From: Psychrobacter cryohalolentis K5
Lineage (GTDB): Bacteria > Pseudomonadota > Gammaproteobacteria > Pseudomonadales > Moraxellaceae
Length of the DNA: 32,000 bases
Direction: 5' to 3'
NCBI RefSeq assembly: GCF_000013905.1
Contig: NC_007969.1
Span: 2,880,001-2,912,000 of the forward strand
Below are positions 2,146 through 28,102 of the stretch, one piece after another. Position 1 is the stretch's first letter. Each line of letters begins with the position of its first letter. The notes beneath the pieces were generated by a model, which saw only the letters and a program-made list of their open reading frames with translations, searched no databases and had not been told where the DNA came from. The position numbers and the translations under genes are program-made.

Positions 2146-2236
2146 GGTGAAGTGGGTGAGTGGCTGAAACCGCACGCCTGGAAAGTGTGTATACGTTAAT
2201 AGCGTATCGAGGGTTCGAATCCCTCCTTCACCGCCA
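2146..2236 (+). tRNA. tRNA-Ser (anticodon GGA)
   Basis: Cloverleaf folded by hand. Acceptor stem GGTGAAG/CTTCACC. Anticodon stem CACGC/GTGTG with loop CTGGAAA. Long variable arm ATACG-ttaatag-CGTAT. T arm GAGGG-TTCGAAT-CCCTC. Discriminator G and encoded CCA. Confidence 0.93.
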
Positions 2237-2382
2237 ATCTTAGTTATCCCCTGTTTTCCTAATCTGTCCCATCACATCCTAAACACTCCTTAAACCCTTT
2301 AACAGCAAGACTTCCAGTCTATGCTTACTGTCTATCCCTGTCCCAATCATTCCCATTCGAACCTATGTATCCCACGTGTTGT

Positions 2383-2520
2383 GTTGGTCTATCCGTTGGT
2401 CTATTATTCATATACGCCTCAATTAGACCAACATTCGATCTCAATCTATATGGCTTAGACCAACATAATCGTCTATAAGCTTTAAAAATATAGCTTGTAG
2501 GTATAAGGAATAGACCAACA
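2383..2520. repeat. five copies of a 9-10 bp motif TAGACCAAC(A): two inverted, three direct; probable integrase arm-type/Xis binding sites
   Basis: GTTGGTCTA at 2383-2391 and 2395-2403. TAGACCAACA at 2424-2433, 2456-2465 and 2511-2520. The last copy abuts the int ATG at 2520. All lie between the tRNA and int. Confidence 0.6.
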
Positions 2521-3878
2521 TGTTAAGTGATGCCAAAATTCGTAAGCTTAAGCCAACTGATAAATGCACCCCTTCTCGCCCAGACAAATATAGTGATCAA
2601 CAAGGTTTACAATTACTGGTACGCAGCTCAGGAACGCGGACATGGGTAAGCGCATATCGCTTTGATGGTAAGCAGCAGAAAACTACTTTAGGTACATACC
2701 CACAAATGGGCTTGGCAGAAGCAAGAGTAGCTAACGCTGACATTAAAGCTTTAGTAGCCAATGGAATCAATCCAAAGAATAAAAAACGTCAAGACAAGCT
2801 TGCGAATGAGCAAGCTAAAACGTTCAATGATTATGCGGTTGAATGGCTAGAGGAGCGTGAGCGCAACGTAAAGCCTCGCACCTATCAGCAAGACTATAAT
2901 CGCATGCACAAAGACGTTATACCTAGCTTTGAAGGCATTGCTTTAAAAGATGTGACGTTTGAAGATTGTAAATTAATGGCAGATAACATTGAAAGCAGGA
3001 CTAATAATGAAGGGGCCTCACCACGAGAAGTAACCAGACGCACTATTGATCTTGTTGGGAATATTCTTAGAAGAGCCATGAGAGAGCGCCTAATCGAGGT
3101 AAATCATACAGATGGGCTTAAAGAGCTATATCCGAAAGCGAAGACTAAGCACATGAAACACGTTGAGCTTAGCGAGCTACCTAAGCTCTTACAAGACATT
3201 GAAGGCTATCATGGTCACGATCAAACTAGATTAGGTATGAAATTTCTAGCATATTCTTTCTGTCGTACTATCGAGCTAAGAATGATGAAGTGGGAGCATA
3301 TTGATTTTCCTAACCGTCTCTGGCGTGTCGATATTGATAATCTTAAAATCGCGCGTAAGCATGTTGTTCCTTTATCAGATCAAATGCTAGCGGTTTTGGA
3401 GGAAATGAAGCACATCACTGGACAGTATGAATACGTTTTCTATCATACTGGTATGCACCAGCCTTATAGCGAAGAGTTCATCAATAACGCTTTAGACATT
3501 CTCGGATATGGAGGTAAACAAACTGGACATGGCTTCCGTCACATTGCCTCAACTAACCTAAACGAGCTGGGATACATGGGTGATGCTATTGAAAAGCAGA
3601 TGGCGCACGACAAGAAAAGTAGCATCAGAGCTGTATATAACCATGCTCAACACTTAGAAGAACGACGCAAGATAATGCAAGTATGGGCGGACTTTTTAGA
3701 CCTACTTAGAGACAAAGGCGAAGTCATAGACTTCCAGACAGCTCGGCAGCAGATTGAGAAGTCAATGATTGTGGAAAACCAAACATCCCTATCAGATTTA
3801 GATAGTGATGCTTTGATAAAGGCTTTGCAAAATAAAGGTCTAACCGGTGAAGATATAAAATCATTACTATCTCTATAG
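2520..3878 (+). CDS. int: tyrosine-type site-specific integrase (P4/CP4-57 family, DUF4102 N-terminal arm-binding domain)
   Basis: The N-terminus LSDAKIRKLKP...GLQLLVRSSGTRTWVSAYRFDGKQQKTTLG is typical of DUF4102. Catalytic pattern: R in CRTIELRMMKWEHIDF, HGFRH, and Y in RAVYNH. SD AAGGAA lies 9 nt upstream. The gene sits next to a tRNA. Confidence 0.95.
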   Translation: MLSDAKIRKLKPTDKCTPSRPDKYSDQQGLQLLVRSSGTRTWVSAYRFDGKQQKTTLGTYPQMGLAEARVANADIKALVANGINPKNKKRQDKLANEQAKTFNDYAVEWLEERERNVKPRTYQQDYNRMHKDVIPSFEGIALKDVTFEDCKLMADNIESRTNNEGASPREVTRRTIDLVGNILRRAMRERLIEVNHTDGLKELYPKAKTKHMKHVELSELPKLLQDIEGYHGHDQTRLGMKFLAYSFCRTIELRMMKWEHIDFPNRLWRVDIDNLKIARKHVVPLSDQMLAVLEEMKHITGQYEYVFYHTGMHQPYSEEFINNALDILGYGGKQTGHGFRHIASTNLNELGYMGDAIEKQMAHDKKSSIRAVYNHAQHLEERRKIMQVWADFLDLLRDKGEVIDFQTARQQIEKSMIVENQTSLSDLDSDALIKALQNKGLTGEDIKSLLSL

Positions 3879-3884
3879 CAAAGG

Positions 3885-4808
3885 CTAATAAATTTCATTG
3901 CCATCCACATCAAGAAATTTTAAATTATATTCCGAGTTAATTAGAATATCGAGCATTGCAGTTTGAGATAACCTATTAACTTCAGCCATCTTCTCAAGTC
4001 TCGCATGTGTCTGGATGGTTAATGGTAAATGATAGCTTTTTTTTGTTTTACCAGCATCACGATATTTTTGTTGGCTCCAAGCTCGCTTCATCTTATCTAT
4101 AATTATTTCTTTACGGTCGTTTGTTACATACTTATTACTATTGTTTATTGACGCTTCAGACAATGGGTAACTTATAATATCCAAAGAAGCTAAAACATGA
4201 CTTCTTACTTCTTTTAGAGAAGCCTTATCTCTTATTATTTCATTATAGATACCAGTCTTTCTTAAATAATCCTTAGTCCACTCTATCTGCTCTTTGTTAC
4301 TTTCACTTATCCACTTAGAATAATTATCTTTACTAGATATTGAAAACCAAATTCTTTCTATCTTACTCAACAGACTAATTTTAGAATCTATAGTATTTTC
4401 ATTAATCTTATTATCGAAAAATCGATATACCTCCTCCATTAAATCATTACTATTAATATCAAACCAGTTATAACCATTTTCTAAATATAGAATGCTCAAA
4501 GTAAATATTTGACCTCTTAAATTATTTATAAGCCAATTAAACTCTCTATCCGGTATTACCTTATAAGTCATTTTCGAATAAGCGTCTTCAACGTAATCTC
4601 TGAATTTATCATCACTTGATAACTGCGCAATAAACTCTTCATGTCGGTTGGTTGAACCAACACTAGAAAATCTAATGTTCTCATTAGAAGATAAATACTC
4701 TTGCATCCAAATAACTTGCCTTTTTGTTAAAGACCTAACATTTTTATCAAAGTATGATTTATTATTGAATTCTCTTTGACGTTTTTCATTACTATAATTT
4801 ATAGACAT
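3885..4808 (-). CDS. hypothetical protein with C-terminal ribbon-helix-helix-like segment
   Basis: 307-aa ORF convergent with int. It is visibly much more AT-rich than its neighbours. The C-terminal KKSYHLPLTIQTHARLEKMAEVNRLSQTAMLDILI looks like a CopG/Arc RHH motif. The rest is unrecognised. Confidence 0.6.
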   Translation of the reverse strand: MSINYSNEKRQREFNNKSYFDKNVRSLTKRQVIWMQEYLSSNENIRFSSVGSTNRHEEFIAQLSSDDKFRDYVEDAYSKMTYKVIPDREFNWLINNLRGQIFTLSILYLENGYNWFDINSNDLMEEVYRFFDNKINENTIDSKISLLSKIERIWFSISSKDNYSKWISESNKEQIEWTKDYLRKTGIYNEIIRDKASLKEVRSHVLASLDIISYPLSEASINNSNKYVTNDRKEIIIDKMKRAWSQQKYRDAGKTKKSYHLPLTIQTHARLEKMAEVNRLSQTAMLDILINSEYNLKFLDVDGNEIY

Positions 4809-5162
4809 ACAACGACCTTTTTGTTATAAATTGTTAATATCACTAGTGATATTTTAGTATAATAGCTTACGTATTCTAATAATCATTATATAGTAATAAA
4901 GTATTATTTAAGATGATTTTCCATAATATTTTGATAGATTTTATGCCACCCTTCGCTAAGGAATATAAGAGTTCTGCCTTTGAAATCACCCTAATATAGC
5001 TAATATATAAATATCAGGTAACTTTCCCTCATAACACTCCTAAGTAAGCAATCATTTCCTCCTAGGCTAGTATGTAAAATCTCTAGTCTAGACTTATAAA
5101 AGGCAATACTAAACGAAAAATAATAGCTTGGTATTATAATATCAAATAACTAGGTAGTAATA

Positions 5163-5185
5163 AGCTAAGAGATTAGCTCTTAGCT
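5163..5185. promoter_or_regulatory. perfect 9-bp inverted repeat AGCTAAGAG-N5-CTCTTAGCT in a divergent promoter region
   Basis: Read directly: 5163-5171 and 5177-5185, about 65 bp upstream of the 5249 start. Flanked by TATTATAA-like elements. Confidence 0.35.
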
Positions 5186-5248
5186 ACTGATATTATAAAA
5201 ATACTTATTCATATAACCCTATGAGTCATTAATCTTATAGGTGAAATA

Positions 5249-6139
5249 ATGCTACATCCATTTATCAATCAATCTAAAATTACTAACGACGTTGATAGAC
5301 TTGTTAAAAACTTGCTATTCAATAATCTTAGCTCTAAACACTTTCAAGATCAACTGAACGAATTATATCGTCCATTCATGTATATGCATTACTCAAATTA
5401 TTCTTTAAATTACTCTCAATCTATTAACGCACTTATGGACAGCTCCATTATGTTTATTGGCGCTGAGCATCCCTGCAATGTTATTTGGGAATACGACATG
5501 ACTCAAAATCTAATTACAGAGCTTTTGAAATATAAGGATAAAATTAGTACAGAGCGTTATAACTGGCTTTATCAAGAAAAAAGAAACAAAGAAAGCTTAG
5601 ATCTTTACTTTAAAAACCTAATTGAAAGAAGATCAAGAGTATTGGTTATCTTTATCGAGCTTAAATATTTAAAAGACCAACGTCATAATGTAAATATTCA
5701 CAGTTTTCATAATCATATGAAAAAACTCAGAAAACTTATCAGTAAGAGGAACTCTTGTTTTAAACACTTAACTGGTTATGCATGGGCATTAGAACAAGGT
5801 TATAAAAACGGTGGTTTTCATTGCCATTTAGTTCTAACTTACGATAATTCAAAAAAGTACTCTGACTGGCTTATAGCTAAAACGATAGGTGAGAAATGGC
5901 AAGAGATCACAGAGGGCGTCGGTACTTATCATAGTTCTCACGATTCTGAGACTAAGCGTAATTTTGAGATGAAAGGTAAATTAGGTGTTGGTAGAATACG
6001 CCGTGATAACCCTCAAGAGGTTGAGAACGCTTTTACTGTAGCAAGGTATCTAACAAAGACTGATAAATACGATCAAAAACTCAAAGTGTGGTTGCCTAAA
6101 ATGCAAACATTTGGACATGGTGAATTCAAGGAAGAATAG
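5249..6139 (+). CDS. YagK/YfjJ-like (Inovirus Gp2-type) protein with HUH and YxxK motifs; possible Rep/relaxase-like protein
   Basis: AWALEQGYKNGGFHCHLVLTYDN contains H-hydrophobic-H, and the downstream VARYLTK is Y-x-x-K. The pattern resembles the YagK/YfjJ proteins of CP4-type prophages as I recall them. Good SD (AGGTGA). Confidence 0.5.
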   Translation: MLHPFINQSKITNDVDRLVKNLLFNNLSSKHFQDQLNELYRPFMYMHYSNYSLNYSQSINALMDSSIMFIGAEHPCNVIWEYDMTQNLITELLKYKDKISTERYNWLYQEKRNKESLDLYFKNLIERRSRVLVIFIELKYLKDQRHNVNIHSFHNHMKKLRKLISKRNSCFKHLTGYAWALEQGYKNGGFHCHLVLTYDNSKKYSDWLIAKTIGEKWQEITEGVGTYHSSHDSETKRNFEMKGKLGVGRIRRDNPQEVENAFTVARYLTKTDKYDQKLKVWLPKMQTFGHGEFKEE

Positions 6140-6243
6140 AGGCTTATCTAAATAGTAAAATAATTTCAGATATATATTATTCCCATGAGAGCAGTCAGGG
6201 AGCATTGCTCTCCTGACGGTTTAACCCAATCCATCCTAATTAA

Positions 6244-6270
6244 AGGTCTGCTTAATCGCAGGCCTTTTTT
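6244..6270 (+). terminator. rho-independent terminator
   Basis: AGGTCTGC-ttaatc-GCAGGCCT stem (8 bp, one G:U) followed by T6. Confidence 0.6.
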
Positions 6271-6294
6271 ATGCGCTTAATTTAAGGAGCTTAT

Positions 6295-6585
6295 ATGCAA
6301 ACAATCTGTCCTTACTGTCACTCATCAAGGGTGATGAACAATATGGATATTGGCAATCCATTTAGTATCTTTGAACAGCTGTGTACGCCAGCAGCGTTAT
6401 CTGGTCTTGGTGTGAGCATCTGTAGGTATTACAAAATCAATTCCGCTATCGGTGTAGTAGTAGGCACGGCCCTTGCCTCTGCGATCAGCTTGGCTAAAGA
6501 TAAGCTACAGCAGCCACCTTTGATCACTCTGGCAGCAAGACCTAGTTATACCTGTAATACCTGCTCAAAAACTTTCAGCATTTAA
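6295..6585 (+). CDS. small hypothetical protein: split zinc ribbon flanking a hydrophobic segment
   Basis: Strong SD (AAGGAG). CPYCH at the N-terminus and CNTC at the C-terminus. Central hydrophobic stretch AIGVVVGTALASAISLA. Confidence 0.55.
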   Translation: MQTICPYCHSSRVMNNMDIGNPFSIFEQLCTPAALSGLGVSICRYYKINSAIGVVVGTALASAISLAKDKLQQPPLITLAARPSYTCNTCSKTFSI

Positions 6586-6634
6586 CTTGTCTATATAACC
6601 AATAACTCTAATCAAATCTAAAAGGACAATTATC

Positions 6635-7627
6635 ATGGCACATTTAATCGAAACAATGGCATACGTCGGCGAAACCCCTTGGCATGGCTTAGGTAACGAG
6701 CTGTCCCCTAAGCAGCCTATCGAGGTTTGGGCTAAGCAAGCTGGGCTTGATTGGCGTATTGAATCCTCAGACGTCAGCTACATGGCAAACAATGACAAAG
6801 GGCATAACCTGATTCTGCCCTTTGCTGAGCAGAAGGTGTTGTACCGCTCTGATAACTTTGAGCCGTTATCAGTCGTTAGTCAGCGTTATCAAGAAGTGCA
6901 GCCGCGTGAGATTCTGGAATTCTATCGTGATCTTACCGAGCAGTCTGACTTTGAATTGGAAACAGCAGGTGTCTTAAAGGGAGGTCGCAAGCTATGGGCA
7001 TTAGCCCGTACAGGCCAGTCAGCAACGCTTAAGGGGAAAGATGTCAGTAATGGCTATCTGTTACTTGCAACGGCTTGTGATGGCACTCTGGCGACCACAG
7101 CACAGTTCACATCGATACGTGTGGTCTGCAATAACACTTTAGCAATTAGCTTAGCGGACGGAAGCGGTGGCGTGGTGAAAGTACCGCATAGCACCTCCTT
7201 TGATGCCGACAAGGTGAAGCAGCAATTAGGTGTGTCGGTCAAACAGTGGAATCAACACAGCTACGAGATGAAGCAATTGTCTGAGCGCCGTGTCACTCAA
7301 GCGGAAGCGGCTAATTATCTTAGCCGAGTCTTCAATGATCAGGACAATAACATCATTTTATTTAACAGCGCTAAGAAAGAGAAAGACGCTGTACCAAACG
7401 CAAAAGCGATGAATAAGGTGATGCAGATGTTTAATGGTCAAGGACGCGGAGCAGATCTTGATGCAGCTCGTGATACGGCTTATGGTTTGCTGTGTAGCAT
7501 TACGGAGTATGTCGATCATGAACGTCGAGCAATGAATACAGACAACCGACTCAACTCAGCATGGTTCGGTGCTGGCGCTAAGCTCAAACAAAAGGGTTTA
7601 GAGGAATCGCTGCTGATGCTTGCTTAA
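6635..7627 (+). CDS. DUF932 domain protein (phage/plasmid-like, TIGR03299-type)
   Basis: The N-terminus MAHLIETMAYVGETPWHGLGN and the overall pattern (LKGGRKLWALA, ACDGTLA, RVVCNNTL) match the DUF932 family common on ICEs and islands. Confidence 0.8.
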   Translation: MAHLIETMAYVGETPWHGLGNELSPKQPIEVWAKQAGLDWRIESSDVSYMANNDKGHNLILPFAEQKVLYRSDNFEPLSVVSQRYQEVQPREILEFYRDLTEQSDFELETAGVLKGGRKLWALARTGQSATLKGKDVSNGYLLLATACDGTLATTAQFTSIRVVCNNTLAISLADGSGGVVKVPHSTSFDADKVKQQLGVSVKQWNQHSYEMKQLSERRVTQAEAANYLSRVFNDQDNNIILFNSAKKEKDAVPNAKAMNKVMQMFNGQGRGADLDAARDTAYGLLCSITEYVDHERRAMNTDNRLNSAWFGAGAKLKQKGLEESLLMLA

Positions 7628-7658
7628 TTATCGATGCTTAAAATATGACAACACAACC

Positions 7659-7685
7659 AACCACGCCTTTGAGCGTGGTTTTTTT
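7659..7685 (+). terminator. rho-independent terminator
   Basis: AACCACGC-ctttga-GCGTGGTT stem followed by a T-run. Confidence 0.7.
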
Positions 7686-7730
7686 ATACCGTTTATTTAA
7701 CCAATAATAAATCTAACGAAGGAGTTCATC

Positions 7731-8837
7731 ATGAACACAATCGCATTGAACCATATCGCTCAGCTCAGACAAACCAAGCGTACAACCGTTAAGGTGAAAG
7801 CGCCTATGGCGACCAAAGCCAATATAGATACTGAAACAGTAAAGCCGTCTACCAATCAATCAACCACCGCAAAACGTCTGGTCAATACCAAAACCCTCAG
7901 TCATGAGGACTGGCTTGAGGTACGTAAGCAAGGTATTGGTAGCTCTGACGCTGCCGCAGCTTGTGGAATACACCCTTACTTATCGATGCTTGAGCTGTGG
8001 ATGATTAAGACCGGTCGTTTGCATTCACACTTGGATGACGATATTGATGGCTACTCACCATTGTACTGGGGCAATACACTAGAGCCGATGGTGGCTAAAT
8101 ATTATCAACAGCACACAGGCAACAAGGTTCGCCGTGTGAATGCCATCTTGCAGCATCCTGATCCTGACAATCACTTTATGCTGGCAAACTTAGACTACGC
8201 GATAACAGGAAATGAGAAGGTGCAGATTCTAGAGTGTAAAACCGCAGGGGAACATGGTGCCAAGCTGTGGAAGCATGGCGTACCGTTGTATGTGACGTGC
8301 CAAGTGCAGCATCAATTAGCAGTCACGGGTAAGCAAGCTGCACATATCTGCGTGCTGCTATGTGGTCATGAAGCAAAGATTTATAAAGTTGAGCGTGACG
8401 AGCGCTTGATTGCCTCCATCATTGAGCATGAGCGGTTATTTTGGCAATATGTGGAAACCGACACTCCACCAACGCCTGATCATAGTGAGTCAGCAGCGAG
8501 AGCCTTAAAACAACTTTATCCAACCCCTGAGCCGTCAAGCAAAGTTGATCTGCGAGAAGATGACGGAGCCAATAAGTTGTTTGAGCAATTGCTGAGCTAC
8601 CGTGACTATATGCAAGAGTTAGAGCAGCGTCATGACCAAGTGAAGCACCAGCTGCAAAGCTTAATTCAAGATAATGAGATTGCGGTATTCGAGAAAGGCG
8701 CTATATCTTGGAAGCGCTCTAAGGACAGCATTAGCCTCGATAGCAAGGCACTAACCAAAGCGCATCCTGAGTTGCTCGAGCAATTTAGTAAAACTCGTCA
8801 AGGCAGTCGTCGCTTTGTAATCCTTAACGATAACTAA
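7731..8837 (+). CDS. YqaJ-type viral recombinase exonuclease (lambda Exo-like PD-(D/E)xK)
   Basis: GIGSSDAAAACGIHPYLSMLELW, LECKTAG (ExK) and QVQHQLAVTG are typical YqaJ motifs. N- and C-terminal extensions are present. Confidence 0.85.
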   Translation: MNTIALNHIAQLRQTKRTTVKVKAPMATKANIDTETVKPSTNQSTTAKRLVNTKTLSHEDWLEVRKQGIGSSDAAAACGIHPYLSMLELWMIKTGRLHSHLDDDIDGYSPLYWGNTLEPMVAKYYQQHTGNKVRRVNAILQHPDPDNHFMLANLDYAITGNEKVQILECKTAGEHGAKLWKHGVPLYVTCQVQHQLAVTGKQAAHICVLLCGHEAKIYKVERDERLIASIIEHERLFWQYVETDTPPTPDHSESAARALKQLYPTPEPSSKVDLREDDGANKLFEQLLSYRDYMQELEQRHDQVKHQLQSLIQDNEIAVFEKGAISWKRSKDSISLDSKALTKAHPELLEQFSKTRQGSRRFVILNDN

Positions 8838-8901
8838 GCCAATAATTCGTTATCAACCATAATCCGTAAATTAATCCACTCAATCAAATAAGCGCATAAA
8901 C

Positions 8902-8928
8902 GCCCACCCGTTATAGGTGGGCTTTTTT
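8902..8928 (+). terminator. rho-independent terminator
   Basis: GCCCACC-cgttata-GGTGGGC stem followed by T6. Confidence 0.7.
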
Positions 8929-8960
8929 ATGGCTAAATAAAACACATAAGGAATATCACC

Positions 8961-9869
8961 ATGATTAAAGGTCTCACTATAACCCCACCAGTTTTAGGAC
9001 GTATCAGCATTGGACGTGTCATTGTAAAGGATGGCAAGCGTCTACCTGCCAAAGACGATCAATTCACCATCACCAGCCAAGTTCAAAATAAGGACGGCTG
9101 GATCAATCACCCACTAGACGAGAAGCTACGCGAAAACAGCAACGGCAAACTCAGACAAATACCGGTACGCATGCTGTTTAATGATCCTGAACTAAACTTA
9201 CGTGCTGAGTACACGCTATTTGATAGACAGACCGGACGCCCACTATGCGTAGGCGACGGTGAGCAATGTCAGCGACGCACAAACAAAGGCGTTGAAAACC
9301 ATCCATGCCCATCACCTGATCGCTGTCCATTGGCACAAGGCGGTGCTTGTAAACCTTATGGAAGGCTCTATGTGAATCTGTCTGAGGATGATGAACTTGG
9401 CACGTTCATCTTTCGGACAACTGGCTTTAATAGTATTCGTACGCTTGCCGCAAGGCTGAGCTACTTTGCAGCAGTATCAGGCAATAAACTGTCATGTCTG
9501 CCATTACAGCTTACCTTGAGAGGCAAAAGTACGACACAAAGCTATCGCACGCCGATTTACTTTGTTGATTTAACACTGCGTGATGGCATCACACTCAAGC
9601 AAGCGGTGCAAGATGCACAAGCGATAGATGCGGAGCTGAGTGAGCATGGCTTTGATCAAGCAGCATTAGAGCAAGCTGCGAAACAAGGATATGTGAATTC
9701 ATGCTTTGAGGTCGATGGCGATGATTTAGCAGAAGTCGCTGAGGAGTTTTATCCGATGGAAACAGACGCAGCTAGCAATCAGCAAAATAACTCTAAGAGT
9801 GAATTCCCCATTAATACAGTAGCTAGTATTGAGCAAGGTCTACGGCAAAGTGTGACGGCTGTGAGTTGA
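8961..9869 (+). CDS. Cys-rich protein of unknown function
   Basis: Good SD. The N-terminus is MIKGLTITPPVLGRISIGRV. Cysteine cluster C-x6-C...C-x5-C-x7-C (CVGDGEQC...CPSPDRCPLAQGGAC). Acidic C-terminal tail. Function unknown to me. Confidence 0.6.
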   Translation: MIKGLTITPPVLGRISIGRVIVKDGKRLPAKDDQFTITSQVQNKDGWINHPLDEKLRENSNGKLRQIPVRMLFNDPELNLRAEYTLFDRQTGRPLCVGDGEQCQRRTNKGVENHPCPSPDRCPLAQGGACKPYGRLYVNLSEDDELGTFIFRTTGFNSIRTLAARLSYFAAVSGNKLSCLPLQLTLRGKSTTQSYRTPIYFVDLTLRDGITLKQAVQDAQAIDAELSEHGFDQAALEQAAKQGYVNSCFEVDGDDLAEVAEEFYPMETDAASNQQNNSKSEFPINTVASIEQGLRQSVTAVS

Positions 9870-9896
9870 TACTGCTAAGCGTATACAGAGCATATA

Positions 9897-9927
9897 AAGG
9901 AGCTGATTAATTCAGCTCCTTTTTTTC
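9897..9927 (+). terminator. rho-independent terminator
   Basis: AAGGAGCTGA-ttaat-TCAGCTCCTT 10-bp stem followed by T7. Confidence 0.75.
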
Positions 9928-10037
9928 GTGAATTAAATAAGAGTAAACAATCGGACTGCATGGGATGCCGTAAAAAAATATAGGACTGGGTAACTGTATG
10001 AGAGGAAACGCTCTCAATAACTTACAAGGAGCTAATC

Positions 10038-10298
10038 GTGGAAAATTTAAATATTAATAACCAAAATAACGCAGCTAACCTAAGTGCTTTACTCATACCA
10101 AGAATGGTGCCACTAAAAGATGTCGTCTACTTCACTGCGCTTAGTAGTACAACTATTTACGACATGTTAGATAAAAGATCTAGTCGTTATGACCCAACTT
10201 TCCCTCGTCAAGTTAAATTATCAAAAGGCAGAGTAGCTTGGGTTGAGAGTGAAATTACACAATGGTTAGAGTCCAAGATGGCAGATAGGGTTCACTAG
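10038..10298 (+). CDS. alpA: AlpA-family transcriptional regulator/excisionase (phage HTH)
   Basis: GTG start with AGGAG SD. The LKDVVYFTALSSTTIYDMLDK...FPRQVKLSKGRVAWVESEITQWL pattern matches the CP4-57 AlpA / Phage_AlpA family. Confidence 0.85.
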   Translation: MENLNINNQNNAANLSALLIPRMVPLKDVVYFTALSSTTIYDMLDKRSSRYDPTFPRQVKLSKGRVAWVESEITQWLESKMADRVH

Positions 10299-10611: not shown

Positions 10612-11502
10612 ATGCAATTATCTAAACGTGAGCATATAGCCCTTGAGCTATTGAAAACTAAAAACTTTTCTACAAAAAAATCTTTTAAACTTGCTGATGA
10701 ATTCAGCATCTCTTCACTTGATGTTGATCATCCTATTTCAGAAGACTGTGACCTTAAGAAAATATGGCAATGGGCAGATGAGTTTAATATCCCTGAAAGC
10801 GAGATTCCTCGTAATAAAGATCAGTTGCTATCAATGAGTCATTTGCAAATACTAAGAGATTACGATGGTAATTCTCGCTGCCTAACCTACTTGCCTGAAG
10901 CTATTGGGATACTAGTCAATTTAAAGCAAATTCATTTATTAAATCATGAGCTAACTAAACTACCTGATAGCATTGGTAACTTAAAGAAGCTAATGTTCAT
11001 ATCTGTTGATCGTAACAATCTAACAGAATTACCTGATAGCATATGCAAACTTAGAAAATTACAAGTTCTCACTGCAACAAGAAATTCGTTAATTAAGTTA
11101 CCTAATGAAATTGGGAGCTTAATGAGTTTGCAACTAATTGAACTAGCAGGCAATAAACTGAATAAACTACCATCTAGTATTACTCATTTGACTGAGCTAG
11201 AAATACTTGACATTAGATGGAATCGACTAACTGAGCTACCCGATACTATAGGTCAGCTATCAGAATTACAAGAACTTCACATTGAAGAAAACTTCCTAAC
11301 GAATCTGCCTGATAGCATTGGTGAGCTATCCTACCTAGAAGAGATTCACTTTGACAATAATCATATAACAAGAGTTCCTGAAGGTATCTGCAATCTTAAA
11401 AGAATTAATACCTTAGTCTTGGATAATAGCATATTCGAGAATTCGTCTAATTCAGTTAAGGGTTTTTTAAATGGCATAGAGAGTTTTGAGAAAAAATTAT
11501 AG
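10612..11502 (+). CDS. leucine-rich repeat (LRR) protein, no signal peptide
   Basis: Eight exact-period 23-aa repeats of the form LxxLPxxIGxLxxLxxLxLxxNx span aa 91-274 (nt 10882-11433). They are preceded by a ~90-aa non-repeat N-terminal region. No hydrophobic leader. Confidence 0.9.
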   Translation: MQLSKREHIALELLKTKNFSTKKSFKLADEFSISSLDVDHPISEDCDLKKIWQWADEFNIPESEIPRNKDQLLSMSHLQILRDYDGNSRCLTYLPEAIGILVNLKQIHLLNHELTKLPDSIGNLKKLMFISVDRNNLTELPDSICKLRKLQVLTATRNSLIKLPNEIGSLMSLQLIELAGNKLNKLPSSITHLTELEILDIRWNRLTELPDTIGQLSELQELHIEENFLTNLPDSIGELSYLEEIHFDNNHITRVPEGICNLKRINTLVLDNSIFENSSNSVKGFLNGIESFEKKL

Positions 11503-11526
11503 TGATAAGACCTAACTAATATAAAA

Positions 11527-11556
11527 AGGCGAGTCAATCTAAATGACTCGCCTTTT
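11527..11556. terminator. bidirectional rho-independent terminator
   Basis: AGGCGAGTCA-atctaaa-TGACTCGCCT 10-bp stem with an A-run before and a T-run after. It sits between the LRR gene (+) and the small minus-strand ORF. Confidence 0.75.
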
Positions 11557-12226: not shown

Positions 12227-15094
12227 ATGAGAGAGATTATTACCGTTGATCAATTAAATTTTAATTTTCTTGGCAAGATTTTTGGTAAAAAAGGCATCCG
12301 TCTGACAGAGCAAGGCTTGCTTATAGACACTAAAAAAGGACCAACTGAGCTCATCTCTTTCGCTGAAGTTAAGAAGTTTGCTTATATTGAAGAAGGATTC
12401 TTTGGCGCAACTCTATTTGTTCACAACAATCAATCATTGCGAGAACACAAATTTTTATCCAAAACTAACTCTACAGCGTTTTTAGAGTCTATCAACAAAA
12501 AGATTGCTCACTCATTACAACCCCATCTCCTTAACTTAATTGAAGATTTTAACCTTCGAGTTTTGAGTAACTACCCTAGAGATTCTAAAATAGAACCAAT
12601 TAAGTCATTAGCAGATGAGCTGTCTATATTTTATAAAGATGCTAGGGTGCCATGGGATTACTTTAGCAACCCTAATCTGTTTAGCGAAGTTGAGAAGATA
12701 CACAACCTCTGCCCTATCAAACAAGAAACCTTAGGCGCGTATCATGAAAAAATCAATCTAGAACGAAGAAAGTCTTTTTTTGATAGCGTAGAGTCAAACC
12801 CGTTGACTGATGAGCAAAGACTAGGTGTACTTCGCTCTAATGATAAGAACATGGTACTGGCTGCTGCTGGCACAGGCAAAACCTCTGTAATAGTTGCCAA
12901 GGCCCTCGACCTTATTGATAGGGGACTAGCAGCACCTCAAGAGATTCTAGTTCTGGCTTACAATAAATCAGCTGCTGAAGAGTTAAAAAAACGGCTTGCT
13001 GATAAAGCTGAGAACTCAGGCATCGTATTAACTGAATCCCCTCAAATTTCAACATTTCACGCTTTAGGTAGAAAAATCCTAGGGGATTCTGGTATCTCAA
13101 CCTATATGAGCGTCTTCACTGAAGACAGCTTAAAGCTTGGTGCGTGGGTAACAGAGTGGCTAATAGAGTATTTAACACAAGATCCCAAAAGAATGGTCGA
13201 TTTTATATCGCTATTCCCAGAACCTGTGAATCCTTTCGACTTTAAGACTCAAGAAGAGTATGAGCGGCATATCAGAGACAATGAGTTTAGAACTCTCCAA
13301 GGCGAGTTGGTCAAAGGGTATCAGGAACTCAGGATAGCTAACTGGCTGGCTATTCATAAGATCGCATACGAATATGAAGCGCGTTATATCAGTAAGCGTA
13401 GAATTGACATAGGTTTTGACTACCAACCTGATTTTCATATATCGGACTCTAATATTTACATCGAGCACTTCGGCATTGATAGGCATGGTAATACTCGACC
13501 AGATATTGATAAGCAAGCATATGACGATTCTATAGATAGCAAACGTAAACTGCATAAAGAGCTTGAAACAGTTTTAGTGGAAACATTCCATTATGACTGG
13601 ACTGAAGATGCACTCGAAGCTCGTCTTGAAGAACGACTGGCTGCTGTTGGGGTTATTCCTGATAAAAACTCAGTTGAAGAGGCTTCAAAAGAATTACTCT
13701 CTAAACTCAAGGAAGGCAATCAAATTGCCACTTGGAGCAAAATGCTTATTAAGGCTTTACAAGCCACTCGATTTGAAAGGCTCAATGAAAACTCAATACT
13801 TGATAGACTAGAAAAAGCCGGCATCTCACAAGCAAAGAAAAAGACACGCATTCTGACTGACTTGCACAACGCGTATGTTGAAGAGCTTGTAGCTACTGAT
13901 TCAATTGACTTTGACGATATGATTATTCGTGCAATCGCAGTTGTAGATAATGGTCAATATAAACCTCAATGGAGATATATTCTTGTTGATGAGTTTCAAG
14001 ATATATCAGCTTCTCGGATGGAGTTTGTTAATAGTATTATTGAGAAAGGTCCTGATCCCTCATTAACCGTTGTCGGTGATGATTGGCAGTCTATCTATCG
14101 ATTTTCAGGTGGTAAACTTGAGCTCACCACTAGATTCAATGAGTTGGTTGGACCACACACGCTAACAATGCTCCAAAAGACCTTTCGCTATAACAATAGC
14201 ATTGCTGATACTGCTGGGACGTTCATCATGGAGAACCCTGAGCAGTATCAGAAACACATCAAAACACACGACGTGATTAATGAACCACAAGTATATTTAC
14301 TAGATGATAAGACTGGTGAAGAGAATGGTCTCTATAGTAGAGTAGCTGAGGTTGTCAGCAAGATTAGAGCAAATGACCCTGAGGGTTCAATAGCGATTAT
14401 TGCTAGGTATAATTATTTGCTAAAAGATTCACGTGATTTTCTTGGTAAAGAAAATTCAAAAGGCATCCATTTTTGGAGCTTTCACAAATCTAAAGGGCTT
14501 GAAGCTGACTATTGCATCTTAATTGGGTTTTTCCAAGGGAAAAGCGGCTTCCCTAATGGAAACCGCGAGGACGCTATTCCAGAAGCCCTACTTCCAACAT
14601 TAGACTCATTCCCTCATTCTGAAGAACGACGTTTGCTGTATGTTGGTATAACGCGCTGTAAAAAGAAATCGTATATTATTGCTAGTCCCACAGCGCCCTC
14701 AGAATTTGTTCTTGAATTACTGGCTCCCAAATATGACATCAACATTTTCTCTAAATCATTTCAAGAACGCCATAGAAAGATATTTAAATGCCCTAACTGC
14801 GTAAACGGCTACCTACGCTTAATCAAAGGGCAGTATGGCAGTTTCTATAGCTGTAGTTCTGGAAAAGGTTGTTCGGTAGGTAAGGCGCGCGTCTGCACGA
14901 AGTGTGAGGCACCATCTGTTGATAGAGAACATGAAAGCTTATGCAACAATAGAGACTGTGGCAATTCAATGAAAATCTGTAATAAATGCGGTCGTCCCAT
15001 GAAAATGCGTGAAAGCAAGTTTGGTAAATTCTGGGGCTGTAGCGGATATGGTATTCCTGATGATCAATGTAAAAATACAATCAAGATTCGCTAA
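12227..15094 (+). CDS. helicase IV (HelD)-like SF1/UvrD-family helicase with inserted Vsr/PD-(D/E)xK-like domain and three C-terminal C4 zinc ribbons
   Basis: The N-terminus and FFDSVESNPLTDEQR...VLAAAGTGKTSVIVAKA...EILVLAYNKSAAEEL align by eye with E. coli HelD as I remember it. Helicase motifs: ILVDEFQDIS, VVGDDWQSIYRFSGG, TFRYN, SFHKSKGLEADY, RRLLYVGITR. Insert at aa ~355-470 (nt ~13289-13636): ELRIANWLAIHKIAYEYEARY...YQPDFHI...IYIEHFG. C-terminal 103 aa (nt 14783-15091): CPNC..CSSGKGC, CTKC..CNNRDC, CNKC..FWGCSGY..C (topoisomerase-type ribbons). Confidence 0.85.
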   Translation: MREIITVDQLNFNFLGKIFGKKGIRLTEQGLLIDTKKGPTELISFAEVKKFAYIEEGFFGATLFVHNNQSLREHKFLSKTNSTAFLESINKKIAHSLQPHLLNLIEDFNLRVLSNYPRDSKIEPIKSLADELSIFYKDARVPWDYFSNPNLFSEVEKIHNLCPIKQETLGAYHEKINLERRKSFFDSVESNPLTDEQRLGVLRSNDKNMVLAAAGTGKTSVIVAKALDLIDRGLAAPQEILVLAYNKSAAEELKKRLADKAENSGIVLTESPQISTFHALGRKILGDSGISTYMSVFTEDSLKLGAWVTEWLIEYLTQDPKRMVDFISLFPEPVNPFDFKTQEEYERHIRDNEFRTLQGELVKGYQELRIANWLAIHKIAYEYEARYISKRRIDIGFDYQPDFHISDSNIYIEHFGIDRHGNTRPDIDKQAYDDSIDSKRKLHKELETVLVETFHYDWTEDALEARLEERLAAVGVIPDKNSVEEASKELLSKLKEGNQIATWSKMLIKALQATRFERLNENSILDRLEKAGISQAKKKTRILTDLHNAYVEELVATDSIDFDDMIIRAIAVVDNGQYKPQWRYILVDEFQDISASRMEFVNSIIEKGPDPSLTVVGDDWQSIYRFSGGKLELTTRFNELVGPHTLTMLQKTFRYNNSIADTAGTFIMENPEQYQKHIKTHDVINEPQVYLLDDKTGEENGLYSRVAEVVSKIRANDPEGSIAIIARYNYLLKDSRDFLGKENSKGIHFWSFHKSKGLEADYCILIGFFQGKSGFPNGNREDAIPEALLPTLDSFPHSEERRLLYVGITRCKKKSYIIASPTAPSEFVLELLAPKYDINIFSKSFQERHRKIFKCPNCVNGYLRLIKGQYGSFYSCSSGKGCSVGKARVCTKCEAPSVDREHESLCNNRDCGNSMKICNKCGRPMKMRESKFGKFWGCSGYGIPDDQCKNTIKIR

Positions 15095-15247: not shown

Positions 15248-15277
15248 AGGCATTGATTAATCATCAATGCCTTTTTT
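15248..15277 (+). terminator. rho-independent terminator
   Basis: AGGCATTGAT-taatc-ATCAATGCCT 10-bp stem followed by T6, about 155 nt after the helicase stop. Confidence 0.75.
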
Positions 15278-15674
15278 AAAGATTTTCCTAAATACGAATT
15301 GATTATAGAATAGTTTTAATAAACTAAATCCTGATTGGCTTATTATTATTTTCAACTTAAAAAAAGACTATTTTTACCGTACAGGCCTTATTAAATAAGG
15401 ATTTCAGCCTCTCTCTAGATAAAGGTGTATTTTTATATTTATAACGTTTTTTAGTAAAATACCTAGACTTAGATAATTAACACCTACAGAAGATTGATTG
15501 AAATTTACCTGTGCAAAAATACAGATAATTGTATTGAAGTTTATTGTTTAGGGATGTTTGTTAATAGTGAGTATAATTCTTTTACTCTAACTTGATAGCT
15601 AGATTCACCTTCTGGCTTTAGACCATGACGCTAATGTAAAGTCATAAAAATTTCAGAGAAATATAAGGATAAAC

Positions 15675-17776: not shown

Positions 17777-18241
17777 ATGGGATTAGAAAAAAAGATAGCA
17801 TTAAACATCTCTAAAGAGCTCTCTAATAAACTGTCAAAGAAAATAGCTGGACAGACTATCAGGTGGATGCAAAGTCAAAGCACTACAATAGATCTAGGCT
17901 GCCTCGAAAATCTCTGGGATGATGTTTGTTACCAGTGTCAAGGGGGATCACGAACCTACTCATGGAATCAATATGATTTTGCGGTTGTGACATATGTCAT
18001 ATCACGGCTTGAAGAGCTCAGTGAATATGAAGCTAATGCAATCTGGTTACAAACTGAATATGCCTATGATCATCTAGTCGATATGGAAGACGGTGGTGTA
18101 AGCATAGATAGTAGTTTCACACCAATGAACTCATCGCCCTATGTAGATGACATAGCAAAATATATTGCTCATAAATATATTTATGAGCAGGCAGCCAGTT
18201 GGCATAACGATAGACTCCGACAAGCTCTCGGATACGATTAA
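17777..18241 (+). CDS. hypothetical protein (154 aa)
   Basis: Open frame with an SD-like AAGGCGG. No motif I can name. Convergent with hsdR. Confidence 0.5.
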   Translation: MGLEKKIALNISKELSNKLSKKIAGQTIRWMQSQSTTIDLGCLENLWDDVCYQCQGGSRTYSWNQYDFAVVTYVISRLEELSEYEANAIWLQTEYAYDHLVDMEDGGVSIDSSFTPMNSSPYVDDIAKYIAHKYIYEQAASWHNDRLRQALGYD

Positions 18242-27946: not shown

Positions 27947-28102
27947 ATTTAACTTAGCACTAGTGCCTCATGATAGTGATGCTAATAGGCACTATTATGA
28001 TTCATTGATTTTTAATGCAGCCAAATAAATCGATATAACTAAAACCAAAATAATAAACTTTTTTTCTGAAAAACTTTATATTAAAAATTGGAAGTTTTAA
28101 AT

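What the first reader, a model, noticed from the sequence alone, without database searches (positions are those of the whole stretch)
12227..15094. Stand-alone HelD-like SF1 helicase carrying an inserted restriction-endonuclease-like fold and three zinc ribbons
**Shown by the sequence**
- The protein matches helicase IV from the N-terminal domain through all UvrD-type motifs.
- About 115 aa are inserted between the 1A and 1B/2A parts. The insert has an E...PDF...IEH pattern typical of Vsr/DUF2726-like PD-(D/E)xK folds.
- The C-terminal 103 aa hold three C4 ribbons. Two are of the topoisomerase type (FYSCS / FWGCS).
- As far as I recall, E. coli HelD (684 aa) has neither addition.
- The gene is monocistronic, with its own upstream region and a strong terminator at 15248-15277. 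It lies between other defence genes.

**Established knowledge**
- Single-chain nuclease-helicases (e.g. Nhi) and UvrD-like partners (GajB) act in phage defence.

**Inference**
- This is a candidate single-gene nuclease-helicase defence protein of an architecture I cannot assign to a named system.
Basis: partly seen in the sequence, partly recalled or inferred. Interest (0 to 1): 0.65.

Follow-up and report, generated by a model that had tools for sequence, protein, structure and literature searches.

The report
Helicase with built-in nuclease, defence candidate
A Psychrobacter genomic island encodes a single 955-residue protein that joins a helicase IV-type DNA motor, an embedded DNA-cutting domain and three zinc fingers; it belongs to a large, uncharacterised, horizontally mobile family that often sits beside known anti-phage systems and is a good but untested candidate for a one-gene defence system.

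Summary
The ORF at 12227-15094 is real and encodes 955 aa. Its SF1A motor is closest to E. coli helicase IV (36-42% identity in two blocks). It scores 361.6 bits against a 543-bit equivalog cut-off, and residues 1-170 show no detectable HelD similarity.

About 150 extra residues sit at the 1B position between TFHALG and DEFQD. Their core (aa 338-472) is a PD-(D/E)xK nuclease fold of the Vsr/DUF559/T7-endonuclease-I branch. The evidence is Pfam Phage_endo_I hits in 16 of 32 relatives, a PDB profile hit to T7 endonuclease I, PADLOC PD-DEXK models, an AlphaFold model (pLDDT 89.6) and 21 Foldseek viral hits. E367, D402 and E413 are conserved in about 99% of relatives. The canonical lysine position is Phe/Tyr.

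The tail holds three C4 ribbons with 12 near-invariant cysteines.

The architecture defines a large family (1,101 50%-identity clusters at E<=1e-10). It has no conserved partner gene and is carried by islands, plasmids and transposons. In Psychrobacter, close relatives occupy four different loci, each beside known defence systems.

No PADLOC model or paper found names it. Defence activity remains an inference.

The parts
12227..15094 (+). Complete ORF, 955 aa: helicase IV-like SF1A helicase with an embedded nuclease domain and a zinc-ribbon tail
12227..12736 (+). N-terminal domain, aa 1-170. Family-specific and variable in distant relatives; no detectable similarity to the HelD N-terminal domain or to any Pfam or PDB entry
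12737..13102 (+). First part of motor domain 1A, aa 171-292, including Walker A GTGKT (12869-12883) and TFHALG (13052-13069). 42% identical to E. coli HelD aa 176-283
13103..13837 (+). Enlarged 1B-position module, aa 293-537 (253 aa between the HelD-alignable blocks, against 104 aa in HelD): helical flanks plus the nuclease core
13238..13642 (+). PD-(D/E)xK nuclease core, aa 338-472, alpha-beta-beta-beta-alpha-beta. Candidate catalytic residues: E367 (13325-13327), D402 (13430-13432), E413 (13463-13465), H414 (13466-13468), K439 (13541-13543). F415 occupies the canonical Lys position
13838..14734 (+). Rest of the helicase core, aa 538-836: DEFQD 13988-14002, motif III 14075-14104, motif IV 14183-14194, motif V 14483-14503, motif VI 14639-14656. 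36% identical to E. coli HelD aa 387-670
14789..14872 (+). Zinc ribbon 1 (C855, C858, C876, C882; FYSCS), topoisomerase-I type
14894..14959 (+). Zinc ribbon 2 (C890, C893, C906, C911)
14978..15070 (+). Zinc ribbon 3 (C918, C921, C938, C948; FWGCS). Best Pfam Zn_ribbon_Top1 stretch, aa 917-953
15248..15278 (+). Terminator-like hairpin (10-bp stem, 5-nt loop, T6) 154 nt after the stop codon
11524..11556 (.). Hairpin with a 13-bp stem, flanked by an A run and a T run (bidirectional terminator-like). It separates the upstream LRR gene from the 724-nt region ahead of the helicase gene

Best explanation
The gene encodes a self-contained helicase-nuclease that most likely acts as a one-protein defence against phages or other invading replicons.

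**Shown**
- The motor is an intact SF1A (UvrD/Rep/helicase IV-type) ATPase-helicase.
- A PD-(D/E)xK nuclease domain of the Vsr/DUF559/T7-endonuclease-I branch is built into the 1B position.
- The nuclease acidic triad (E367, D402, E413), H414 and K439 are conserved at 94-99% in 162 relatives that are as little as about 30% identical.
- Three C4 zinc ribbons, two of the topoisomerase-I type, form the C-terminus.
- The N-terminal ~170 residues differ between subfamilies.
- The gene has no conserved partner. It travels as cargo of islands, plasmids and transposons, often next to known defence systems.

**Inferred mechanism**
- The ribbons bind single-stranded or branched DNA, as they do in topoisomerase I.
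- The motor translocates 3'->5' and unwinds.
- The nuclease sits in 1B, next to where DNA enters the motor. It cuts the strand or branch point being processed and so destroys replication or recombination intermediates of the invader.
- The variable N-terminal domain gates or targets this activity.
For: **Architecture**
- Pfam, NCBIfam and BLASTP against HelD define the motor and the two additions.

**Nuclease fold**
- Pfam Phage_endo_I matches 16 of 32 family members, best E=6e-5.
- A profile hit to T7 endonuclease I in the PDB (E=1e-3) aligns E367/D402/E413 with E20/D55/E65.
- PADLOC models HEAT_CxxC_PD-DEXK (2.7e-6), PDC-S69 (1.5e-9) and PDC-S68 match the insert.
- AlphaFold models reach pLDDT 89.4 and 89.6 with an alpha-beta-beta-beta-alpha-beta core.
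- Foldseek against BFVD gives 21 hits at E<=1e-3, probability 1.00, TM 0.52-0.67. They include Vsr (DNA mismatch endonuclease), DUF559, endonuclease I, restriction enzymes and homing endonucleases; DUF2726, TnsA-N and a second Vsr entry follow at E 2e-3 to 4e-3.
- PDB Foldseek top hits are PD-(D/E)xK enzymes.
- Active-site residues are conserved.

**Family size and conserved architecture**
- The insert alone finds 1,761 clusters at E<=1e-3 and 1,101 at E<=1e-10. Of 87 full-length representatives, 59 have at least three CxxC motifs in the tail.

**Mobility and context**
- Window: tRNA-Ser island with GmrSD-like, type I R-M and MzaB.
- L013-15: Gabija plus GmrSD immediately downstream.
- L092: AAA_11/12 helicase plus PLD (Mokosh-like) and an integrase.
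- L093/94: ThsB_TIR/TPR-S and type I R-M, between resolvases.
- L101/102: DO-GTPase/caspase conflict system and an MmeI-type R-M.
- L096-98: TniABQ transposon cargo.
- Conjugative plasmid pVAS114, and 114 plasmid records in all.
- A Vibrio integrase/AlpA island.

**No conserved partner**
-.

**Precedents for single-chain helicase-nucleases in defence**
- Hhe has a Vsr domain, and its E1731A mutant loses defence (10.1101/2022.06.16.496414).
- Nhi and Hna (PMC10734457, PMC10732053).
Against: - No phenotype or biochemistry exists for any member found.
- The canonical Lys of (D/E)xK is replaced by Phe/Tyr/Leu in the whole family, so catalysis must use another base or may be absent.
- Neighbourhood evidence is strong only for the close clade. 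Over 59 loci of at least 12 kb, only 13 had a homologue of my limited seed set of mobile or defence genes.
- No Pfam family recurs in more than 3 of about 110 neighbours.
- Pseudoalteromonas species keep the gene in a conserved non-defence locus with GGDEF/EAL, phospholipase C and a peptidase.
- The locus from assembly GCA_900079515.1, whose helicase is named Shewanella woodyi, lies between sugar genes and rpoD-dnaG.
- I could compute no background-controlled enrichment statistic.
- A T7 endonuclease I-like domain would fit recombination or repair roles equally well.
Confidence: 0.55

Rival explanations
1. It is a DNA repair, recombination or replication-restart enzyme. In this reading, a helicase IV-type motor with a junction- or branch-cutting nuclease processes stalled forks, R-loops or recombination intermediates. 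It does so for the host, or for the mobile element that carries it (plasmid, ICE or transposon maintenance or establishment), rather than attacking invaders.
For: - The nuclease is most similar in sequence to T7 endonuclease I, a branched-DNA resolvase.
- The motor is closest to helicase IV, a repair/recombination-associated helicase.
- The gene is carried on conjugative plasmids and transposons, where element-benefit genes are common.
- One relative lies next to umuDC.
- Pseudoalteromonas has a conserved non-defence locus.
- Many neighbourhoods are heterogeneous and not defence-like.
Against: - The distribution is sparse and patchy: 237 loci with the signature motif in 185,579 species genomes.
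- The flanks change right at the ORF boundaries, even between relatives 85-97% identical.
- Four of four Psychrobacter contexts and the P0014 context are packed with defence or conflict systems.
- The variable N-terminal domain is typical of fast-evolving conflict proteins.
Confidence: 0.25
2. The nuclease-like domain is catalytically dead and serves only as a DNA-structure-binding module. The protein would then be a specialised translocase or remodeller. For example, it might strip proteins or RNA polymerase from DNA, as suggested for HelD-type proteins. The TopA-type ribbons would tether it to ssDNA or RNA polymerase.
For: - The canonical catalytic Lys position is Phe/Tyr/Leu throughout the family.
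- Foldseek's best PDB matches are T. gondii mitoribosomal proteins, which are not known nucleases. My recollection that these are RAP-domain proteins is unverified.
- From my own knowledge, E. coli topoisomerase I ribbons contact RNA polymerase. This was not tested here.
Against: - E367, E384, D402 and E413 are each conserved in 159-160 of 162 sequences. H414, K439 and H443 are conserved in 152-161 of 162. Such retention of a metal-binding acidic set is not expected for a dead domain.
- Vsr-type members of this fold also lack the classical Lys (my knowledge).
- The Bacillus HelD and HelR models match only at 29 and 14 bits.
Confidence: 0.12
3. It is simply the local housekeeping orthologue of helicase IV (HelD), with lineage-specific decorations.
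For: - Helicase IV is the best NCBIfam hit.
- Many database entries name relatives 'helicase IV'.
Against: - The score of 361.6 bits is below the 543-bit equivalog cut-off.
- There is no HelD N-terminal domain.
- The gene sits in a tRNA-integrated island.
- Close relatives have different loci.
- E. coli helD lies in a core yccF-helD-mgsA locus and lacks both additions.
Confidence: 0.04

Closest known systems
E. coli DNA helicase IV (HelD; NCBIfam NF008276)
   Same: It is the closest named relative of the motor. Identity is 42% over aa 171-285 and 36% over aa 538-828. The motif set is the same, and the segment between motifs IV and V is short.
   Different: - No detectable HelD N-terminal domain.
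- About 150 extra residues carrying a nuclease at the 1B position.
- About 113 extra C-terminal residues with three zinc ribbons.
- Below the equivalog cut-off.
- Mobile rather than core location.
T7 endonuclease I / Vsr / DUF559 / DUF2726 branch of PD-(D/E)xK nucleases
   Same: - Same core fold.
- Same E...(P)D(F)...E motif register; FEYE/YEYE, YTPDF/YQPDF and VETKG/IEHFG line up.
   Different: - The domain is embedded inside a helicase rather than free-standing.
- The Lys67 position is Phe.
- An invariant Lys (K439) and His (H443) lie on the following helix.
- T7 endonuclease I works as a domain-swapped dimer, which was not examined here.
Hhe (HheA) single-protein defence system
   Same: One polypeptide combines an SF1 helicase with a Vsr-type endonuclease. 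The nuclease glutamate is needed for defence (10.1101/2022.06.16.496414).
   Different: - HheA is much larger; its nuclease active-site residue is E1731.
- From my recollection, its nuclease is C-terminal and its helicase is not UvrD/helicase IV-type. This was not checked here.
- No HheA PADLOC model matched the insert, and none was in the top 25 hits for the whole protein.
Nhi and Hna nuclease-helicase defence proteins
   Same: They are stand-alone proteins that join a nuclease to a helicase. Nhi is reported to degrade phage-specific replication intermediates, and both are reported to be triggered by phage SSB (PMC10734457, PMC10732053).
   Different: - They use different helicase clades. By my recollection Nhi is UPF1-like (AAA_11/AAA_12) and Hna is SF2-like; here the motor is UvrD/helicase IV-type.
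- Their nuclease is terminal, not inserted in 1B.
- They have no Top1-type ribbons.
Gabija GajB
   Same: It is a UvrD-family helicase used in defence, and gives the best PADLOC hit (130 bits).
   Different: - The match covers only part of the motor.
- GajB works with the separate nuclease GajA, and no GajA is adjacent in the window.
- In L013-15 a complete, separate GajA/GajB pair lies next to the gene, so the two are distinct.

Membership tests
DNA helicase IV (HelD), NCBIfam NF008276 equivalog | Whole-protein score at or above the curated cut-off (543 bits) | tested here: not met
   361.6 bits in two stretches; the best is aa 502-836 against profile positions 350-678
DNA helicase IV (HelD), NCBIfam NF008276 equivalog | HelD-type N-terminal domain | tested here: not met
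   No Pfam hit for aa 1-194 at E<=10. hhalign of the family N-terminus against HelD aa 1-195 aligns only 14 columns next to the motor. Sensitivity is limited because the template was a single sequence
DNA helicase IV (HelD), NCBIfam NF008276 equivalog | UvrD/Rep-type SF1A motifs I-VI | tested here: met
   Pfam UvrD-helicase 4.1e-46 and UvrD_C 5.1e-13; motifs located
DNA helicase IV (HelD), NCBIfam NF008276 equivalog | Core, syntenic chromosomal gene | tested here: not met
   The gene lies in a tRNA-Ser/integrase island in the window. Close relatives occupy four different loci. E. coli helD is core, in yccF-helD-mgsA
PD-(D/E)xK nuclease superfamily (Vsr/DUF559/endonuclease I branch) | alpha-beta-beta-beta-alpha-beta core fold | tested here: met
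   AlphaFold pLDDT 89.6 with elements H28-39, E44-46, E66-68, E73-78, H92-108, E112-117. 21 BFVD hits at E<=1e-3 to endonucleases of this branch. PDB hits are weak (best E=0.009) but are PD-(D/E)xK enzymes
PD-(D/E)xK nuclease superfamily (Vsr/DUF559/endonuclease I branch) | Conserved acidic residues on helix 1 and strands 2 and 3 | tested here: met
   E367, D402 and E413 align with T7 endonuclease I E20, D55 and E65. Each is conserved in 160 of 162 sequences
PD-(D/E)xK nuclease superfamily (Vsr/DUF559/endonuclease I branch) | Catalytic Lys two residues after the second acidic residue | tested here: not met
   Position 415 is F131/Y23/L4/M1/H1 and never K. K439 (159/162) and H414 (152/162) are candidate substitutes; this is inference
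PD-(D/E)xK nuclease superfamily (Vsr/DUF559/endonuclease I branch) | Metal-dependent DNA cleavage | not testable with these tools
   Needs biochemistry
Zn_ribbon_Top1 (PF01396) | Pfam gathering score (32 bits) and four Cys per ribbon | tested here: met
   38.2 bits for the whole protein and 40.6 bits for the tail alone, two stretches. 12 Cys in three C4 sets are near-invariant. The middle ribbon is not called by Pfam
Gabija (GajB with GajA) | Full-length GajB match plus an adjacent GajA | tested here: not met
   Best GajB model scores 130 bits, with its best stretch at aa 535-739. The neighbours are an LRR protein and GmrSD, not GajA
Hhe / Nhi / Hna single-chain helicase-nucleases | Sequence membership (PADLOC model, or the same helicase clade and domain order) | tested here: not met
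   The insert matches only PDC-S69, PDC-S68 and HEAT_CxxC_PD-DEXK. The top 25 whole-protein hits are 24 GajB models and one RTasHel. Pfam gives UvrD-type, not AAA_11/AAA_12
Hhe / Nhi / Hna single-chain helicase-nucleases | Anti-phage phenotype dependent on the ATPase and nuclease residues | not testable with these tools
   Needs cloning and phage challenge
Gram-positive HelD / HelR RNA-polymerase recycling motors | NCBIfam NF041464 / NF041254 cut-offs (419 / 750 bits) | tested here: not met
   29.3 and 14.1 bits

The most novel reading that the evidence does not exclude
This is the founding example of a large, unnamed, single-gene immunity family with at least about 1,100 clusters at 50% identity, found across Proteobacteria, Campylobacterota, Firmicutes and several candidate phyla. 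In it, a helicase IV-derived motor carries a structure-specific, lysine-less Vsr/endonuclease-I-type nuclease inside its 1B domain, together with TopA-type ssDNA-binding ribbons. That arrangement would let one polypeptide find, unwind and cut branched or single-stranded replication intermediates of phages or plasmids. A swappable N-terminal domain would set what triggers it.
Probability: 0.4. Interest if true: 0.7.

Novelty: new variant of a known kind. Interest (0 to 1): 0.55.

Why it matters
If the inference holds, a very widespread protein now labelled only 'UvrD-helicase domain-containing protein' or 'helicase IV' would be a new one-gene defence system.

- **Design.** The nuclease is built into the 1B domain of an SF1A motor. 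That differs from the terminal fusions of Hhe, Nhi, Hna, AddA and RecB. It would give a compact model for how unwinding and cutting are coupled.
- **Annotation.** Hundreds of genomes label these proteins 'helicase IV', which suggests a housekeeping role that the data here do not support.
- **Nuclease chemistry.** The conserved lysine-less active site (D...E-H plus a distal K/H) is a testable variation on PD-(D/E)xK chemistry.

Tried and rejected
- **Pfam on the window's own insert, N-terminus and tail.** Only the ribbons were found. The nuclease became visible only through relatives and profiles.
- **phmmer of the insert against the PDB.** Only spurious repeat hits.
- **Foldseek of the 246-aa and 135-aa models against the PDB.** No hit at E<=1e-3. 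The lists are enriched in PD-(D/E)xK enzymes but are not decisive alone. T7 endonuclease I was not recovered, possibly because it is a domain-swapped dimer. The viral library gave the significant hits.
- **hhalign of the N-terminal domain against the HelD N-terminus.** Negative.
- **phmmer of the N-terminal domain against the PDB.** Negative.
- **Search for a conserved partner gene.** All-against-all clustering of ±4 neighbours in 79 loci found none. The largest cluster (9 loci) is GGDEF/EAL proteins.
- **Pfam census of ±1 and ±2 neighbours.** No family occurs in more than 3 members. It gives no enrichment statistic, because the tool lists only family counts and I had no control set.
- **Seed-based scan for mobile or defence homologues in 59 long loci.** Only 13 were positive. 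This is limited by my small seed set and is a lower bound.
- **Phage genome collection.** Only short unannotated faecal metagenome fragments at 27-32% identity, so this is not a typical phage gene.
- **Literature searches.** No paper describes this architecture as a defence system. Post-2023 catalogues could not be queried directly.
- **Rfam on the window.** Only the tRNA.
- **Upstream and downstream DNA of six close relatives.** No shared promoter or terminator block; similarity ends at the ORF boundaries.
- **GajB, HelD_BACSU/HelR and true HelD membership.** Considered and rejected.


Full report
**1. What is in the sequence**

Pfam finds a split UvrD-helicase domain (E=4.1e-46), AAA_19 spanning aa 207-626, UvrD_C (aa 702-820) and two Zn_ribbon_Top1 stretches (38.2 bits against a 32-bit cut-off).

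All SF1A motifs are intact:
- GTGKT, aa 215-219
- TFHALG, aa 276-281
- DEFQD, aa 588-592
- GDDWQSIYRF, aa 617-626
- FRYN, aa 653-656
- HKSKGLE, aa 753-759
- YVGITR, aa 805-810

The best named family is DNA helicase IV (NF008276). The score of 361.6 bits is below the curated 543-bit cut-off. Rep, PcrA and UvrD score far lower. The Gram-positive HelD and HelR models barely match, at 29 and 14 bits.

**2. Comparison with E. coli HelD**

I fetched helD from MG1655 and compared the proteins.
- Similarity is confined to aa 171-285 (42% identity to HelD 176-283) and aa 538-828 (36% identity to HelD 387-670).
- Between these blocks the query has 253 residues and HelD has 104.
- After the last block the query has 127 residues and HelD has 14.
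The internal one is about 150 residues net, not 115.

The claim that the match starts in the N-terminal domain does not hold.
- Residues 1-194 have no Pfam hit even at E<=10.
- There is no PDB hit for the N-terminal domain.
- hhalign of a 101-sequence family profile against HelD aa 1-195 aligns only 14 columns adjoining the motor.
- In more distant relatives, coverage typically begins near residue 175. The N-terminal domain is therefore the variable part of the family.

**3. The insert is a nuclease fold**

The window's own insert gave nothing in Pfam or by phmmer against the PDB. Several independent lines then converged.
- PADLOC models with PD-DEXK domains match it: PDC-S69 at 1.5e-9, PDC-S68 at 8.9e-8 and HEAT_CxxC_PD-DEXK at 2.7e-6.
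- Of 32 diverse family inserts, 16 hit Pfam Phage_endo_I, best E=6e-5.
- A profile of the family hits four T7 endonuclease I entries in the PDB, best E=1e-3. The alignment places E367, D402 and E413 on the catalytic E20, D55 and E65. The strings FEYE/YEYE, YTPDF/YQPDF and VETKG/IEHFG are in register.
- AlphaFold models of aa 290-535 and aa 338-472 are confident (pLDDT 89.4 and 89.6, pTM 0.81). They show helix-strand-strand-strand-helix-strand, with those residues on the expected elements.
- Foldseek against viral predicted structures returns 21 hits at E<=1e-3, probability 1.00 and TM 0.52-0.67. They are annotated Vsr (DNA mismatch endonuclease), DUF559, endonuclease I, restriction enzyme or homing endonuclease. 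DUF2726, TnsA-N and a second Vsr entry follow at E 2e-3 to 4e-3.
- Against the PDB the hits are weak (best E=0.009). They are cap-snatching endonucleases, the R2 restriction-like endonuclease, Bax1, RecU, PvuRts1I, BstEII and McrC, together with T. gondii mitoribosomal proteins.

The closest relative at sequence level is the endonuclease I family.

One departure matters. The position of the catalytic Lys (T7 K67) is F415, and it is F, Y or L in 158 of 162 relatives and never K. Conservation of the other residues is high:

| Residue | Conserved in (of 162) |
|---|---|
| E367 | 160 |
| E384 | 159 |
| D402 | 160 |
| E413 | 160 |
| H414 | 152 |
| K439 | 159 |
| H443 | 161 |

I read this as a live active site with a relocated base. 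That is inference.

**4. Position of the insert**

It lies between TFHALG and DEFQD. From established knowledge of Rep, PcrA and UvrD structures, this is where the 1B domain is inserted into 1A. 1B lines the path of the incoming DNA. The nuclease is therefore embedded in the motor, not appended to it.

**5. The tail**

Twelve of the protein's 15 cysteines lie in the last 101 residues. They form three CxxC...C...C sets (855/858/876/882, 890/893/906/911, 918/921/938/948). All are at least 90% conserved in the 25-sequence alignment. Pfam calls the first and third as topoisomerase-I ribbons.

**6. A large family with a fixed architecture**

- The word-indexed search returned 1,170 proteins at E<=1e-10. 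The best 120 are 919-1013 aa (one of 830 aa), 55-97% identical, and nearly all have the same Pfam set. They are named only 'UvrD-helicase domain-containing protein' or 'helicase IV'.
- The insert alone, searched against 1.84 billion cluster representatives, found 1,761 clusters at E<=1e-3 and 1,101 at E<=1e-10.
- Among the 87 listed representatives of at least 850 aa, 59 have three or more CxxC motifs in the tail, and nearly all have the insert at about residue 300.
- A signature-motif scan of one genome per species found 237 loci in 185,579 species. They are scattered over Psychrobacter, Acinetobacter, Vibrio, Shewanella, Pasteurellaceae, Campylobacterota, Veillonella and several candidate phyla. 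Two genomes carry two copies.
- The window itself is Psychrobacter, with 95-97% matches.

**7. Context in the window**

A tRNA-Ser(GGA) at 2146-2236 is followed by a P4-type integrase and a backbone of DUF932, YqaJ, Gp3-like RDF and AlpA genes.

The cargo then follows, in order:
- an LRR protein with no PADLOC hit
- this gene
- a GmrSD-like enzyme (HEC-06/Orf5 models, 4e-82)
- a 154-aa orphan
- a type I R-M (REase_I 1e-160, MTase_I 3e-208)
- an MTase-S fusion
- a DUF3293 protein
- an MzaB homologue (1.6e-90)

The gene is bracketed by a bidirectional hairpin at 11524-11556 and a hairpin plus T6 at 15248-15278. This fits a monocistronic unit. Promoter-like matches are at chance level.

**8. Context of relatives**

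In the close clade (85-97% identity), four unrelated loci were found:
- the window
- Gabija (GajA at 912 bits, plus GajB) and GmrSD immediately downstream, in three Psychrobacter species
- an AAA_11/AAA_12 helicase plus a PLD protein and an integrase
- ThsB_TIR/TPR-S and a type I R-M, with resolvases on both sides

DNA similarity between these loci stops within a few bases of the start and stop codons.

Further out, the contexts are:
- a DO-GTPase/GASH/caspase conflict system and an MmeI-type R-M
- cargo of a TniA/B/Q transposon, seen on at least 24 contigs
- RepL/H-NS/AlpA/MobA elements
- a Vibrio yicC island with integrase and AlpA
- the conjugative plasmid pVAS114, and 114 plasmid records in all
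- a locus beside a 1,907-aa NACHT protein

Counter-examples exist.
- One locus lies between sugar-utilisation genes and rpoD-dnaG.
- Five to six Pseudoalteromonas species share a conserved non-defence neighbourhood of GGDEF/EAL, phospholipase C and an M14 peptidase.

No partner gene is conserved. The largest neighbour cluster covers 9 of 79 loci, and no Pfam family occurs in more than 3 of about 110 neighbours. My seed-based scan flagged only 13 of 59 long loci. This is a lower bound, and it shows that I cannot claim a measured enrichment. Cultured phages do not carry the gene.

**9. Interpretation**

The protein is best described as an autonomous helicase-nuclease of the helicase IV branch.

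I commit to the reading that it is a one-gene defence or exclusion system. In this reading:
- the ribbons load it on single-stranded or branched DNA
- the motor unwinds 3'->5'
- the 1B-embedded nuclease cuts the substrate
- the variable N-terminus controls when this happens

The domain facts are shown. The polarity, the substrate and the defence role are inferred from family knowledge, context and precedent. The precedents are Hhe, Nhi and Hna (10.1101/2022.06.16.496414, PMC10734457, PMC10732053).

The main rival is a repair, recombination or element-maintenance enzyme. The endonuclease I kinship and the non-defence loci keep that rival alive.

**10. Novelty**

PADLOC 2.0 has no model for it. 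Pfam has no model for the insert. Nine literature searches found no description. Single-chain helicase-nucleases in defence are a known kind. This domain order and helicase clade are not. I therefore rate it a new variant of a known kind, of moderate to good interest, pending experiment.

Noticed in passing
window 2146-10298: tRNA-Ser(GGA) at 2146-2236 is followed by a P4-type integrase (2520-3878). A backbone follows: REP_ORF2-G2P-like (5249-6139), DUF932 (6635-7627), YqaJ (7731-8837), Gp3-like RDF (8961-9869) and AlpA (10038-10298). This is the integrated island that carries the defence cargo. No attR repeat was found inside the window.
   Followed up: partly
window 10612-11502: A 296-aa leucine-rich-repeat protein lies directly upstream. 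It has five 69-nt-spaced DNA repeats (10951-11322) and no PADLOC match. Its role in the island is unknown.
   Followed up: partly
window 28088-29563: A HATPase_c_3 protein matches PADLOC MzaB at 1.6e-90. This suggests an Mza system at the right end of the window. The other Mza components were not checked.
   Followed up: no
window 24569-26371 (-) and 17777-18241 (+): A 600-aa N6-methyltransferase fused to a type I specificity domain lies next to the complete type I R-M. A 154-aa orphan ORF with no hits lies between GmrSD and HsdR.
   Followed up: no
L006:9051-9557(-), L011:11015-11521(-), L033:3691-4194(-): A 168-aa predicted membrane protein lies divergently upstream of the helicase. It is identical in a V. 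parahaemolyticus chromosomal island and the V. alginolyticus conjugative plasmid pVAS114, and 99% identical in L033. This points to a two-gene block that moved recently.
   Followed up: partly
L101:6244-7980, L040:3311-5056, L045:6739-8559: A 578-606-aa ORF with no Pfam entry on record (L101) or PDB match lies co-directionally just upstream of the helicase in three lineages. In the Pasteurellaceae an additional ~120-aa ORF lies between them, and gaps are 20-40 nt. It may be a partner in a subset of the family.
   Followed up: partly
L060-L064, L068 (Pseudoalteromonas): A ~50%-identical subfamily sits in a locus conserved across five to six species, beside GGDEF/EAL, Zn phospholipase C and an M14 peptidase. 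This is the main observation that does not fit a purely mobile defence gene.
   Followed up: partly
L013:8020-8814(-), L092:394-1188(-): A 264-265-aa protein with a ParA-like P-loop (GNTGKS) lies upstream of the helicase in two Psychrobacter contexts that differ downstream (Gabija versus Mokosh-like). These loci may be plasmid-borne.
   Followed up: no
L067 and L072; L030 and L068: Neptunomonas japonica and Pseudoalteromonas sp. APC 3691 each carry two divergent copies of the family.
   Followed up: no
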